From NCBI GenBank assembly GCA_963744145.1, contig CAVUSO010000001.1, forward strand, positions 1,998,831 through 2,062,830: a stretch of 64,000 bases of DNA, in the 5' to 3' direction. Positions 35,442-38,729 of the stretch are shown piece by piece. The notes under the pieces are model-generated. The model was not told the origin of the DNA, made no database searches, and was given only the letters and a program-made list of their open reading frames with translations. Source of the stretch: an uncultured cyanobacterium. Lineage in GTDB: Bacteria; Cyanobacteriota; Cyanobacteriia; Cyanobacteriales; CAWUOF01. Both the position numbers and the translations under genes were made by a program. The stretch's first letter is position 1, and every line of letters starts with the position of its first letter.

Positions 35442-36141
35442 TCAAACCGTCTTGTCCGGTAATAACCCGTGCCGAATAAAAAGCTGATTAAAAAAGTTTT
35501 GTACGACCTGTTGCCCACCATTATCTTGCCCACCATTATCTCGTAGTTCATAGCCTCCAAAGCGATAAACTTCATATCCACTCAACTTGAGTTTACGATC
35601 TGCTGCAACCATTTCAGAATAAAGTTGAGGACTTGCGGTATCTCCATCCGCGTAATGTTGTTTCCCATCAACTTCAAGCACTACCCGTCTCGAATGAGGT
35701 AAAAGGAGAAGAAAATCCATACGCTGGCGGGGTAGCTCAATCTGCCCATTACGCTCACGAACAGTGTAGGGATCGTAATGTAAATATACTTGAGGAATTA
35801 GTGCAGGTAAATTATGCTCCAAGACTGAAGACATTGTTTTAAAATAGCTATTAAATAGCAAATGCTCAGGTGGTGATGCAAGTGACTGCTGTAGTCGTTC
35901 CAATAGCGTTTGCTCTGTCTTATCAGGTAGATTTTGCCACCATTCCATTAGAGCTATCCAGGATAAACCTTCTGATGGTATTGTCCTATCATAAATTAAA
36001 CAATATTTTTCGTTTTTAGTAATACGAATATCATTATTGAGAGCATCAACCAAGACAATCTCTGGTTTGTAACCGTTCGAGGCAAATATCAAGTTTTTAA
36101 CTTGTCCACTAACGCCTCCTTCCAAAGCAGTAGCTTTATAT
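35442..36141 (-). pseudogene. 3' part of an IS-split gene: middle domain plus C-terminal DUF559/Vsr-like PD-(D/E)xK endonuclease domain
   Basis: C-terminal RMDFLLLLPHSRRVVLEVDGKQH...KLSGYEVYRF matches the DUF559 signature (R.DF...LP..VIEVDG..H). The called GTG start lies inside the IS inverted repeat. It joins in frame to 38338..38729 across a 6-bp TSD. Confidence 0.65.
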
Positions 36142-38331
36142 CCCATATTCCGCACTTCAAAATGTAGTATAAAAGTTACATAAAGGCCAAGAGCATTAAT
36201 GAGTATAATTACTTAAATAACCACAGGGCAAAAAAATGAGATGATCAGAAAGTCAGCCAAAATCTAAAAACTTCAAAAAAATGATTACTTCATCAGAAAT
36301 ACAAATCAAAAATCTAGACCACTTAGGAATAGTGGCAGGGATAATTGATGAAATAGGAATAGTCGAAATAATCAATGATAAATTAGGAATGGATAGCCGC
36401 TCAAATATCGATAATGGTCAAGTAGTAAAAGCGATGCTCTTGAATGGACTAGGGATGGTATCAAAACCCTTATATTTATTTAGTCAATTCTTTGCAGATA
36501 AAGCGATAGAAAAATTGCTAGGACCAAATATTAAAAGTGAATATTTAAACGACGATAAACTTGGTAGAGTGATGGATAAACTCTATAAATACGGATTAAC
36601 TAGGCTATTTGTAGAAATCGTATTAGTAACTATAAACAAGTTTAAAATTGAATCAAAGTATGCCCATTTAGATGCGACATCATTTCATTTACATGGGGAA
36701 TATAATTATGAAAAAGTCAACCAAGAAAATGAAGATATCATCAAAGAAAGACCGATATTTATAACTAAAGGATATTCTCGTGATCATCGTTCAGACTTGA
36801 AGCAATGTATATTAGACTTGGTGGTAAGTAGCGATGGGGATATCCCATTATTTATCCGAATCGCCGATGGCAATGAAGCAGATAAGGCTGTCTTTGGCCA
36901 GGTTTTTAGCTCATTTAAAAATCAACTAAATTTAGACAGTATTTTGGTAGCTGATAGTGCTTTATATAGTGAGGAAAATCTAAAAATAATGAAGGATTTT
37001 AACTGGATAACTAGAGTCCCAAGCACTATTTCCCAAGCCAAAAATTTAATCCAAGTTAAAGAGATAGAACCGGAAAAATATGAGAATTTAGAAAAATTAC
37101 CTCAACCCGAAAAAGACTTGATTAAAGGTTTACAAGCCAAAGGATATAAGTGGCAAGAAAAAACAGTAAATTACGGAGATATAGAGCAAAGATGGTTAAT
37201 AGTAGAAAGTGAAAAAAGAAAAAAAAGTGATCGAGAAAAGTTCGAGAAACAACTCCAGCAATCACAACAGAAAGCCGAAAAAATTCTCAAAAAACTCCAA
37301 AATGAAAAATTTGAAAGTATCGCTCAAGCTCGAACTAAACTAACGGAAATAAATCAATCACTAAAATTTTTTGAGCTCCAGGAAATCAATGTGATTATAA
37401 CTGGATATAAATCATTAAAAAGCTGGCAGATAGCTGGAAAAGTCGTGCCAAAACTATCAGAAATAGACCCGAAAAAATCAGAAGCAGGTCGATTTATTTT
37501 AGCGACAAATGTTCTGGAACCAGAAAAAATTAAATCTCCAGAAATTCTCAGAAGTTATAAAAATCAACAGGGATGTGAGCGGGGATTTGGTTTTCTCAAA
37601 GACCCCTTATTTTTTGCCGATAGTTTTTTTGTCAAAAAACCACAAAGAGTTGAGACAATTTTATTTTTAATGTCTATGTGTTTATTAGTTTATAATCTTG
37701 GTCAAAGAGAACTAAGAAAGAATTTACTTAGAACTCAGACTGGAGTAAAAAATCAAGTCGGTAAATTAACAAGCCGACCGACATTAAGATGGATATTTCA
37801 ATGTTTTCAAGGAATTCATTTTGTGATTCTAAATGGAGTTGAAAGAATTATTAACTTGACCGAAGAACGTAATTTTATGTTAGAATTTTTACCCACTTCT
37901 TGTCAAAGATATTATCAATAATTCCCTAGTTTTCTGGGCAAAATCGCTGAGATAATGAAGCACTTCATTATGGGGAGAAATAAATTTTCTTCCTTGACTT
38001 TTTGATGGCTATATTCACTAATTTTCATCAAAAAAATACCTTGATTGACTTTTTTACTTGCTCTTTCAGATTTTTTTAATAATTCTTCTTTTTATCTTTG
38101 TATTCTTGTGTTTTACATAATGAAGGATCAATCTGACCAGCTAGCAATGCCAAAAGCAACACTTGGTAAGGCAATATCTGTCACTTTAATCAGCATAAGT
38201 ACTTATTATTTCTAGGATGATTTCCGACCAATTAGTGCTGTGGTGAGCGGAAAATTTCGGTCATTCATGAGTATAAATGCTCAGATAAATATGTTACAAA
38301 GTATATTACAAATTGACGTGCGGAATGTGGG
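36142..38331 (+). mobile_element. Divergent IS1634/IS4-like insertion sequence, copy 2 (about 2190 bp): inverted repeats CCCAYATTCCGCAC, 6-bp TSD TTATAT, inserted in a nuclease-domain gene
   Basis: Left end ctTTATAT|cccatattccgcac. Right end gtgcggaatgtggg|TTATATata. Carries transposase 36281..37921. Confidence 0.75.
36281..37921 (+). CDS. DDE transposase (IS1634-like), divergent paralog of the 19689..21335 transposase
   Basis: 546 aa. Same N-terminal architecture (IKNLDHLGIVAGIIDEIGIVEIIN...NDDKLGRVMDKLY) but only roughly half identical. Confidence 0.8.
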   Translation: MITSSEIQIKNLDHLGIVAGIIDEIGIVEIINDKLGMDSRSNIDNGQVVKAMLLNGLGMVSKPLYLFSQFFADKAIEKLLGPNIKSEYLNDDKLGRVMDKLYKYGLTRLFVEIVLVTINKFKIESKYAHLDATSFHLHGEYNYEKVNQENEDIIKERPIFITKGYSRDHRSDLKQCILDLVVSSDGDIPLFIRIADGNEADKAVFGQVFSSFKNQLNLDSILVADSALYSEENLKIMKDFNWITRVPSTISQAKNLIQVKEIEPEKYENLEKLPQPEKDLIKGLQAKGYKWQEKTVNYGDIEQRWLIVESEKRKKSDREKFEKQLQQSQQKAEKILKKLQNEKFESIAQARTKLTEINQSLKFFELQEINVIITGYKSLKSWQIAGKVVPKLSEIDPKKSEAGRFILATNVLEPEKIKSPEILRSYKNQQGCERGFGFLKDPLFFADSFFVKKPQRVETILFLMSMCLLVYNLGQRELRKNLLRTQTGVKNQVGKLTSRPTLRWIFQCFQGIHFVILNGVERIINLTEERNFMLEFLPTSCQRYYQ

Positions 38332-38337
38332 TTATAT

Positions 38338-38729
38338 ATAGGAGAACCTGATTTTTTTTCTTTTTCCTTTAGTAGGTATCCATCATGTCTCAAGTAACCA
38401 TTTATAATTTCGACGTACTCTAACTGAGTTCCTGGTGATCGCACTATAGGATCTACTATCTGCTCTAAAAAATGCAAAAAATTTTCTCTTGGCATTTGAA
38501 GGGTATTTAAATATGAGATAAACAAAAATTCATCATCCCAATCATTGTTATTTATCATATGTTGCCAGATATCCTGCATAGCAGTCTTAAACCTTGAATC
38601 TGTGGAGTCCATTTCTGACAAATTCCAAGTTCTTTCCAAAAACTCTAGAAGGCCAAGTCTACCAGAAATATTACCTTTCAAAATTAGAGATTCAATAATA
38701 TTTCGTCGAGTTATCTCAGTAATAATCAT
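38338..38729 (-). pseudogene. 5' part of the IS-split gene (N-terminal domain of unknown function, about 130 aa)
   Basis: ORF MIITEITRRNIIESLILKG...KEKEKKSGSPIY runs into the IS inverted repeat at 38331. After removing the IS and one TSD copy it continues in frame as ...SPIYKATALEGG... into 36141..35442. Confidence 0.6.

What the first reader, a model, noticed from the sequence alone, without database searches (positions are those of the whole stretch)
35442..38729. Nuclease-domain gene split by an IS1634-like insertion; reconstructs in frame across a 6-bp TTATAT target duplication
The minus-strand ORF 38729..38338 runs directly into the right inverted repeat of the IS. The minus-strand ORF 36141..35442 starts inside the left inverted repeat. 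Removing the IS plus one copy of TTATAT joins them in frame (...KEKEKKSGSPIY|KATALEGGVSG...) into a protein of about 363 aa. Its C-terminus has the DUF559/Vsr-like endonuclease signature RMDFLLLLP...VLEVDGKQH. This is an insertionally inactivated candidate Abi/defense effector with an N-terminal domain of unknown function. The ancestral intact gene is recoverable in silico.
Basis: seen in the sequence. Interest (0 to 1): 0.65.

Follow-up and report, generated by a model that had tools for sequence, protein, structure and literature searches.

The report
Insertion sequence splits AbiJ-related nuclease gene
A mobile insertion sequence has jumped into, and so inactivated, a gene for a widespread but untested predicted anti-phage nuclease; this is a clean, ordinary case of gene disruption.

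Summary
A 2,190-bp IS1634-family insertion sequence (36142-38331) has an intact 546-aa transposase, roughly 30-bp imperfect terminal inverted repeats and a perfect 6-bp TTATAT target duplication. It sits inside a minus-strand gene.

Removing the IS and one TTATAT copy gives a 363-aa ORF. It aligns without a gap at the junction to full-length homologues, the best at 61-70% identity (Microcoleus, Tychonema). The Pfam AbiJ_NTD3 profile spans the junction (E 3e-57), and each fragment alone hits a complementary part of that profile.

The most likely ancestral function is a single-gene sensor-nuclease acting in abortive infection or defence. This is inferred and untested. No intact allele or empty site was found.

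The written join coordinates drop both TTATAT copies. The N-terminal domain is a named Pfam domain, although its function is unknown.

The parts
38338..38729 (-). 5' part of the disrupted gene. It covers codons 1-130 and the first two bases of codon 131, with the ATG at 38729-38727. It encodes the helical core and first beta-hairpin of the AbiJ-NTD3 domain.
   Evidence: ORF list. Pfam AbiJ_NTD3 profile positions 2-139, E 3e-48. AF2 model of residues 1-130, pLDDT 93.7.
38332..38337 (.). Right copy of the 6-bp target-site duplication TTATAT.
   Evidence: Sequence.
36142..38331 (+). IS1634-family insertion sequence, 2,190 bp. It occurs once in this window.
   Evidence: Inverted repeats and target duplication. 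blastn against the window finds only distant relatives. A Logan contig starts exactly at 36142.
36142..36171 (+). Left terminal inverted repeat (CCCATATTCCGCAC...).
   Evidence: The end matches the family consensus C-----YT (PMC2266710).
38302..38331 (-). Right terminal inverted repeat (reverse complement CCCACATTCCGCAC...).
36281..37921 (+). Intact 546-aa transposase with DUF4277 and DDE_Tnp_1 domains.
   Evidence: NCBIfam NF033559 IS1634 family transposase, 381 bits against a cut-off of 100. Pfam.
36136..36141 (.). Left copy of the 6-bp target-site duplication TTATAT.
   Evidence: Sequence.
35442..36141 (-). 3' part of the disrupted gene. It covers the last base of codon 131 through codon 363, with the stop at 35444-35442. 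It encodes the end of AbiJ-NTD3 (KNLIFA beta region), a helical linker and the nuclease domain.
   Evidence: Reconstruction. Pfam AbiJ_NTD3 profile positions 132-167 and a weak DUF559 hit. Alignment to homologues.
35544..35807 (-). Vsr/DUF559-like PD-(D/E)xK nuclease core, about residues 243-330. The family-invariant residues are D273 (35717-35715), E287 (35675-35673), D289 (35669-35667) and H293 (35657-35655), plus the GYEVYRFGG strand.
36142..36155 (-). IS-encoded start of the leftover 237-aa ORF. A GTG at 36155 and an ATG at 36147 lie in frame with the nuclease half.
   Evidence: ORF list and sequence. Expression was not tested. Promoter-like sites are not above the shuffle expectation.
38265..38331 (-). 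IS-encoded tail and stop of the leftover 154-aa N-terminal ORF. About 22 foreign residues (...NPHSARQFVIYFVTYLSEHLYS) follow the last native residue, Y132; the first of them (N) uses two bases of the right TTATAT copy.
   Evidence: ORF list.
35511..35540 (-). Perfect 15-bp tandem duplication (TTGCCCACCATTATC x2). It adds DNGGQ (residues 332-336) in a surface loop of the nuclease domain and is absent from all 60 aligned homologues.

Best explanation
A 2,190-bp IS1634-family insertion sequence transposed into an AT-rich hexamer (TTATAT) inside codons 131-133 of a 363-codon minus-strand gene. It duplicated the hexamer and split the gene into a 154-aa and a 237-aa leftover ORF.

The ancestral gene encoded an 'AbiJ-related protein' with three parts:
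- an N-terminal AbiJ-NTD3 domain, made of a six-helix bundle plus a beta region;
- a helical linker;
- a C-terminal Vsr/DUF559-like PD-(D/E)xK endonuclease.

Shown here: the insertion itself, the family of the IS, the exact reconstruction, the domain and fold assignments, the wide and patchy distribution on plasmids, prophage-like contigs and integrase-flanked islands, and the lack of any conserved partner gene.

Inferred: the protein acts alone as a sensor-effector of abortive-infection or anti-mobile-element type. The N-terminal domain would hold the nuclease inactive until it detects an invader cue, after which the nuclease cuts DNA. In this genome the gene is dead.

The insertion looks recent. 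The transposase is intact, the target duplication is perfect, neither half has a stop or frameshift, and 116 of 118 highly conserved positions are retained.
For: IS anatomy:
- Ends, inverted repeats and target duplication.
- Transposase at 381 bits to the IS1634 family model.
- Family traits of 5-6 bp AT-rich duplications and ends C-----YT (PMC2266710).
- An independent contig break exactly at 36142.

Split gene:
- One 363-aa ORF after excision.
- PF18860 covers residues 3-166 across the junction, E 3e-57.
- The fragments hit complementary profile ranges.
- The alignment to 15 and to 60 homologues has no gap at the junction, and Y132 at the junction is conserved in at least 90% of 61 sequences.
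- 116 of 118 conserved columns are retained.

Nuclease:
- AF2 model with pLDDT 86.5.
- Foldseek top hits are all PD-(D/E)xK nucleases.
- Sub-threshold DUF559 hits in three family members.
- JGI annotates many homologues as very-short-patch-repair endonuclease.

Defence-type role:
- AbiJ-NTD3 was described as the N-terminal module of AbiJ HEPN RNases, REases, TIR domains, kinases and ABC ATPases in conflict systems (PMC3710099).
- No conserved neighbour; integrase adjacent in 11 of 78 loci.
- Neighbours include Azaca, Mokosh, PD-T4-6, Ymh-HEPN, Schlafen, methylase and HipA hits.
- Relatives occur on 26 viral contigs, many of them near contig ends, and on 112 plasmids.
- Some relatives carry a different N-terminal domain on the same effector module.
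Against: - No member of this architecture has, to my knowledge or in the papers searched, been tested for phage defence or nuclease activity.
- PADLOC gives only a partial N-terminal match to the candidate PDC-M01A. PHROGs gives nothing.
- Pfam DUF559 is below its gathering score, and profile searches find no solved relative by sequence. The nuclease assignment therefore rests on a predicted fold at moderate Z plus motifs.
- No intact allele, empty site or other copy of this IS was recovered, so recency is judged only from lack of decay.
- Two conserved N-terminal positions differ (D81R, H93D). This could mean the gene was already drifting before the insertion.
Confidence: 0.9

Rival explanations
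1. The ancestral protein is a housekeeping DNA-repair enzyme, a Vsr-type mismatch endonuclease with a regulatory N-terminal domain, and not a defence or abortive-infection protein.
For: The fold is closest to Vsr and DUF559 proteins. JGI labels many homologues 'very-short-patch-repair endonuclease'.
Against: No Pfam Vsr hit was found, and DUF559 is sub-threshold. The distribution is patchy, on plasmids, viral contigs and integrase-flanked islands. No conserved cytosine-methylase partner was seen. The N-terminal domain is shared with AbiJ-type conflict proteins. Loss by IS insertion is tolerated here.
Confidence: 0.07
2. The insertion is not neutral decay and has a functional consequence. Either it was selected because it removed a costly or self-toxic nuclease, or it creates a sensor-less nuclease (the 237-aa ORF starting in the left inverted repeat) or a free N-terminal domain (the 154-aa ORF) that is expressed.
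For: The break lies at residue 132/133, just before the low-confidence linker at residues 139-143, so each leftover ORF holds nearly whole structural units. In-frame GTG and ATG codons lie in the inverted repeat, preceded by an AAGGTG. A promoter-like site in the IS left end points outward at 36231-36202.
Against: Promoter-like sites are no more frequent than in shuffled sequence (13 against 15.7). There are no expression data. The surrounding region is full of other IS copies and gene fragments, which fits passive decay.
Confidence: 0.1
3. The family is a selfish element rather than a host defence. It would be a homing-endonuclease-like or addiction-type nuclease that promotes its own spread.
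Confidence: 0.05
4. The two ORFs are unrelated genes that merely flank an IS, and the in-frame join is coincidence.
For: None beyond the a priori one-in-three chance that two frames match.
Against: A single Pfam profile runs through the junction. Thousands of full-length homologues align across it without a gap at the junction.
Confidence: 0.01

Closest known systems
NCBI 'AbiJ-related protein' / UniRef 'AbiJ-NTD3 domain-containing protein' (e.g. WP_333152579.1 from Microcoleus sp. B9-D4, WP_006633635.1 from Microcoleus vaginatus)
   Same: Same length class (357 against 363 aa) and same three-part architecture. Identity is 66-68% over 99% of the length, with all catalytic-motif residues shared.
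   Different: The window copy is interrupted by an IS. It also carries a unique 5-aa DNGGQ duplication and two substitutions at otherwise conserved positions. Many Firmicute members have an extra N-terminal extension of about 90 aa that is absent here.
Lactococcal AbiJ and AbiJ-family HEPN proteins (Abi_C), including S. aureus SadR
   Same: Some AbiJ-family (Abi_C) proteins carry the same AbiJ-NTD3 N-terminal module: 510 of 2,815 Abi_C proteins have it (PMC13590631). They share the single-polypeptide logic of an N-terminal module plus a nucleic-acid-cleaving effector (PMC3710099).
   Different: The effector here is a PD-(D/E)xK DNase-type fold and not a HEPN RNase. No Abi_C domain was detected. 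It is therefore an architectural analogue and not an AbiJ system.
AbiJ-NTD3 + DUF2726 restriction-endonuclease-fold fusions noted by Anantharaman et al. 2013
   Same: AbiJ-NTD3 is fused to a restriction-endonuclease-fold nuclease, and the fusion was proposed to act in defence.
   Different: The nuclease here is of the Vsr/DUF559-like branch by fold. No DUF2726 hit was found.
Vsr / DUF559 / I-Bth0305I / RAP-domain clade of PD-(D/E)xK nucleases
   Different: It is below the Pfam DUF559 threshold and has no Vsr hit. The domain sits at the end of a roughly 240-residue N-terminal and linker region, with extra invariant motifs (PQVYLHYDP, KNLIFA) that I do not know from Vsr/DUF559; this was not checked here.
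IS1634 family insertion sequences
   Same: Transposase family match, DDE domain, 6-bp AT-rich target duplication, and ends fitting C-----YT.
   Different: At 2,190 bp it is slightly longer than the typical 1,500-2,000 bp range, with about 410 bp of non-coding sequence after the transposase stop. The nearest DNA relatives found are only 73-77% identical over parts of the element (Fischerella, Calothrix and Gloeothece plasmids).

Membership tests
IS1634 family (insertion sequence) | Transposase matches the family model above its curated cut-off | tested here: met
   NF033559 scores 381 bits against a cut-off of 100, covering profile positions 2-482 of 483. Pfam finds DUF4277 and DDE_Tnp_1.
IS1634 family (insertion sequence) | 5-6 bp AT-rich target-site duplication | tested here: met
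   TTATAT is present on both sides, 6 of 6 bases identical. The criterion comes from PMC2266710.
IS1634 family (insertion sequence) | Terminal inverted repeats with ends fitting C-----YT | tested here: met
   The ends are CCCATATT... and CCCACATT...; position 1 is C and positions 7-8 are TT.
IS1634 family (insertion sequence) | Typical length 1,500-2,000 bp | tested here: not met
   The element is 2,190 bp. This is a typical range rather than a strict criterion. The excess is a non-coding region of about 410 bp at the 3' end.
Pfam PF18860 AbiJ_NTD3 | Score above the gathering threshold over the full domain | tested here: met
   193 bits against 32.5, residues 3-166 matching profile positions 2-167 of 167.
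AbiJ abortive-infection system (HEPN/Abi_C effector) | C-terminal Abi_C/HEPN RNase domain | tested here: not met
   No Abi_C or HEPN hit in Pfam at E <= 1. The C-terminus folds as a PD-(D/E)xK nuclease.
AbiJ abortive-infection system (HEPN/Abi_C effector) | Demonstrated phage resistance | not testable with these tools
   This requires expression and phage challenge.
Pfam PF04480 DUF559 (Vsr-like endonuclease) | Score above the gathering threshold | tested here: not met
   14.3 bits against 20.6. Relatives score 18.8-19.0 bits.
Vsr/DUF559-like PD-(D/E)xK fold | Structural match to solved members, with acidic and His motif residues conserved | tested here: met
   [not shown]
PADLOC candidate system PDC-M01 | Full-length match to PDC-M01A and presence of its partner gene or genes | tested here: not met
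   Only residues 25-133 match profile positions 32-142 of 639. No partner gene lies in the window next to the gene.

The most novel reading that the evidence does not exclude
The helical core of AbiJ-NTD3 (residues about 5-116, six helices) may be a prokaryotic death-fold domain, like CARD, PYD, DED or DD domains. If so, this very large family of single-gene nucleases, and the AbiJ HEPN RNases that share the domain, would be switched on by homotypic death-fold oligomerisation. That would extend the known bacterial CARD-like defence modules (PMC10312443) to a much larger class of Abi proteins.

Probability: 0.2. Interest if true: 0.55.

Novelty: new member of a known kind. Interest (0 to 1): 0.2.

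Why it matters
On its own this is a routine pseudogene in an IS-rich stretch of what is probably a cyanobacterial genome. It is useful in two practical ways.

First, it corrects annotation. Two 'hypothetical' ORFs and an IS are really one disrupted AbiJ-related gene.

Second, it yields an exact ancestral sequence. That sequence belongs to a very widespread family (thousands of database clusters across many phyla, on plasmids and prophage-like contigs) that has never been tested. The reconstructed gene could be synthesised and assayed.

If the family is confirmed as a stand-alone sensor-nuclease, it would add a common single-gene system to defence catalogues. PADLOC 2.0 does not detect it as a system (only a partial hit to one candidate protein).

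Tried and rejected
- **Intact allele or empty site:** an exact 30-nt empty-site pattern found nothing in metagenome contigs. The best protein relative is only about 70% identical. The window's other proteins that were looked up fall in clusters of at most three sequences at 90% identity, none with a named relative, so the genome seems to have no close sequenced relative.
- **Other copies of the IS:** a 30-nt left-end pattern found nothing in metagenome contigs. Plasmid hits are only 73-77% identical over parts of the element. The window has only two distant IS1634-family relatives at 42-54% amino-acid identity.
- **Source organism:** it could not be named. Look-ups returned no accession or name. 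Cyanobacterial origin is inferred from the best hits.
- **Sequence-level link to solved structures:** none for the whole protein or for the nuclease domain alone.
- **PHROGs:** no match.
- **Rfam and tRNA scans of the window:** nothing found.
- **Conserved partner gene:** rejected. Clustering of the four genes on each side in 78 loci found only integrases recurring, in 11 loci.
- **Outward promoter from the IS:** sites exist but are not above the shuffle expectation, so no claim is made.
- **Membership in AbiJ proper, DUF559, Vsr or PDC-M01:** each was considered and not accepted at family level (see the membership tests).
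Full report
**1. What is in the sequence**

Between 36142 and 38331 lies a 2,190-bp element. It starts CCCATATTCCGCAC, and the reverse complement of its other end reads CCCACATTCCGCAC. The imperfect inverted repeats extend to about 30 nt, and the repeat finder reports the same arms independently.

The element is flanked by a perfect direct repeat TTATAT at 36136-36141 and 38332-38337.

It carries one intact ORF on the plus strand (36281-37921, 546 aa). 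This ORF scores 381 bits against the NCBIfam IS1634-family transposase model, whose cut-off is 100. Pfam finds DUF4277 and DDE_Tnp_1 in it.

The published description of the family fits: 5-6 bp AT-rich duplications and ends of the form C-----YT (PMC2266710). The length is slightly above the typical 1.5-2.0 kb.

Two short-read assembly contigs from run ERR11571142 are 100% identical to the window. One begins exactly at 36142 and the other ends at 36171, a 30-nt overlap. This is what a de Bruijn graph produces at the edge of a repeated element. It gives independent support for the left boundary and suggests the IS is multi-copy in that genome.

**2. The split gene**

On the minus strand, an ORF starting at ATG 38729 runs into the right inverted repeat and stops at 38265. 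A second ORF has its first start codon inside the left inverted repeat (GTG 36155) and runs to 35442.

Deleting the IS and one TTATAT copy gives a 1,092-nt ORF of 363 codons. The junction reads ...SGSPIY|KATALEGG....

The result does not depend on where the boundary is drawn within the repeat.

Three lines of evidence show this is one gene:
- **Profile across the junction.** The Pfam AbiJ_NTD3 profile matches residues 3-166 (profile positions 2-167 of 167, E 3e-57), straight across the junction.
- **Complementary fragments.** The two fragments scanned separately hit profile positions 2-139 and 132-167.
- **Homologues.** 4,609 database clusters match at E <= 0.001. The listed best hits are mostly full length, and the closest are 61-70% identical over 99% of the query, from Microcoleus, Tychonema and metagenomes. 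Alignments with 15 and 60 homologues have no gap at the junction, and Y132 is conserved in at least 90% of 61 sequences.

Of the 118 columns conserved in at least 90% of the 60 homologues, the window protein keeps 116. The exceptions are D81R and H93D. Its only private insertion is DNGGQ, produced by a perfect 15-bp tandem duplication at 35511-35540.

The transposase is intact, the duplication is perfect and neither half has a lesion. The insertion therefore looks recent.

**3. What the ancestral protein is**

An AlphaFold2 model built on 61 sequences has a mean pLDDT of 86.5. It shows:
- a six-helix bundle (residues 5-116);
- a beta region (118-181) that includes the invariant KNLIFA...KP motif;
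- a helical linker (192-241);
- an alpha/beta domain (245-354).

The invariant residues D273, E287-x-D289-G-x-x-H293 and the GYEVYRFGG strand fit the Vsr/DUF559 pattern.

At sequence level the link is weak. Pfam DUF559 is sub-threshold at 14-19 bits against 20.6. Profile searches of PDB sequences find nothing. I therefore call it Vsr/DUF559-like by fold and not a DUF559 family member.

There is no HEPN/Abi_C domain, so it is not AbiJ itself.

AbiJ-NTD3 was defined by Anantharaman et al. (2013) as one of five N-terminal modules. These modules are fused to AbiJ HEPN RNases and, analogously, to restriction-endonuclease-fold, TIR, kinase and ABC-ATPase effectors. The authors treated them as modules of abortive-infection and conflict proteins; the idea that such a module senses the invader and keeps the effector in check is the reading I adopt here (PMC3710099).

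NCBI already names members of this family 'AbiJ-related protein'.

**4. Context and likely mechanism**

The family was found in at least 548 loci of species-representative genomes. These span Cyanobacteria, Firmicutes, Actinobacteria, Proteobacteria, Bacteroidetes, Planctomycetes and others. It also occurs on 112 plasmids, where it is annotated as hypothetical, and on 26 IMG/VR viral contigs, many of them near contig ends.

Clustering the four genes on each side in 78 loci found no conserved partner. The only recurrent neighbour is a tyrosine integrase, in 11 loci.

Scans of 150 neighbouring genes found scattered defence and mobile-element hits. These include Azaca ZacC, Mokosh MkoA, PD-T4-6 kinases, Ymh HEPN, AbiJ_NTD4, Schlafen, an N6 methylase, HipA, TniQ and Tn3.

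Some viral-contig relatives keep the module from KNLIFA to the C-terminus but carry unrelated N-terminal regions. This shows that the module combination is interchangeable.

The best-supported reading is a stand-alone, horizontally mobile sensor-nuclease of abortive-infection or defence type. Activation by an invader cue and DNA cleavage are inferred and not shown. No paper searched reports an experiment on this architecture. PADLOC gives only a partial match of the N-terminal domain to the untested candidate PDC-M01A, and PHROGs gives nothing.

**5. Local setting**

The gene sits in an IS-rich stretch containing gene fragments. It holds:
- two further, distantly related IS1634-family elements, one of them frameshifted;
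- DDE_5 transposase genes and fragments;
- a 70-aa remnant of an FMN-dependent dehydrogenase;
- a TnpB gene;
- STAND-NTPase, TPR and WD40 genes.

GC content is about 38%. The best hits of both the gene and the IS are cyanobacterial, but the organism could not be named. No intact allele, empty site or further copy of this IS was found.

**6. A weak but possibly interesting lead**

CARD-like domains are known to act in bacterial gasdermin defence (PMC10312443). No paper found links them to AbiJ-NTD3.

**7. Verdict**

The finding is a clean, recent IS1634-family insertion into a gene of a large, already named but experimentally untested family. It is ordinary biology: a new member of a known kind, with low interest (0.2). 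Its practical value is that the ancestral gene can be recovered exactly and could be tested.

Noticed in passing
window 35511-35540: A perfect 15-bp tandem duplication (TTGCCCACCATTATC x2) lies inside the nuclease half. It adds DNGGQ in a loop and is absent from all 60 aligned homologues. It looks like a replication-slippage event private to this lineage.
   Followed up: yes
[not shown]
   Followed up: partly
window 37922-38331; locus L081: The Logan contig that starts at the IS left end stops at 37922, one base after the transposase stop codon. The last 410 bp or so of the IS are non-coding. The graph break suggests that copies of the IS differ there, or that this part is shared with another repeat.
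   Followed up: no
window 19689-21335 (-) and 41158-42806 (+): Two more IS1634-family elements are only 42-54% identical in protein to the one studied. The first has an intact 548-aa ORF. The second is broken into three overlapping ORFs by frameshifts.
   Followed up: partly
window 38977-40930: The stretch on the other side of the gene from the TPR genes holds only fragments: a 108-aa piece of a DDE_5 transposase (39557-39883) and a 70-aa remnant of an FMN-dependent dehydrogenase (40718-40930). This region contains several gene fragments.
   Followed up: partly
window 29506-35256: A STAND/NB-ARC-type NTPase gene (29506-30930) is followed by a DDE_5/DDE_Tnp_1 transposase gene (31179-32465). Two paralogous TPR genes with nearly identical N-termini follow (32572-33747 and 33826-35256). 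Whether the transposase separates parts of one NTPase-TPR system was not examined.
   Followed up: no
window 27283-28578 (-): A 431-aa TnpB-type protein (OrfB_IS605 plus the Cas12f1-like TNB domain) is encoded here.
   Followed up: no
loci L002-L009, L083 and others; protein P0020: Many Firmicute members of the family are about 450 aa. They carry an extra N-terminal extension of about 90 aa with no Pfam match, which the cyanobacterial members and the window gene lack.
   Followed up: partly
loci L103-L108 (IMG/VR contigs): Relatives on viral contigs keep the module from the KNLIFA motif to the C-terminus. Their N-terminal regions of about 100-200 aa have no detectable similarity to the AbiJ-NTD3 helical core and no Pfam hit.
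   Followed up: partly
loci L073, L074, L077, L079: In four alphaproteobacterial loci the homologue lies directly downstream of a conserved pair: a 260-aa protein and a 1,167-aa helicase-like protein. From memory this resembles a Hachiman-type pair. It was not tested specifically.
   Followed up: no
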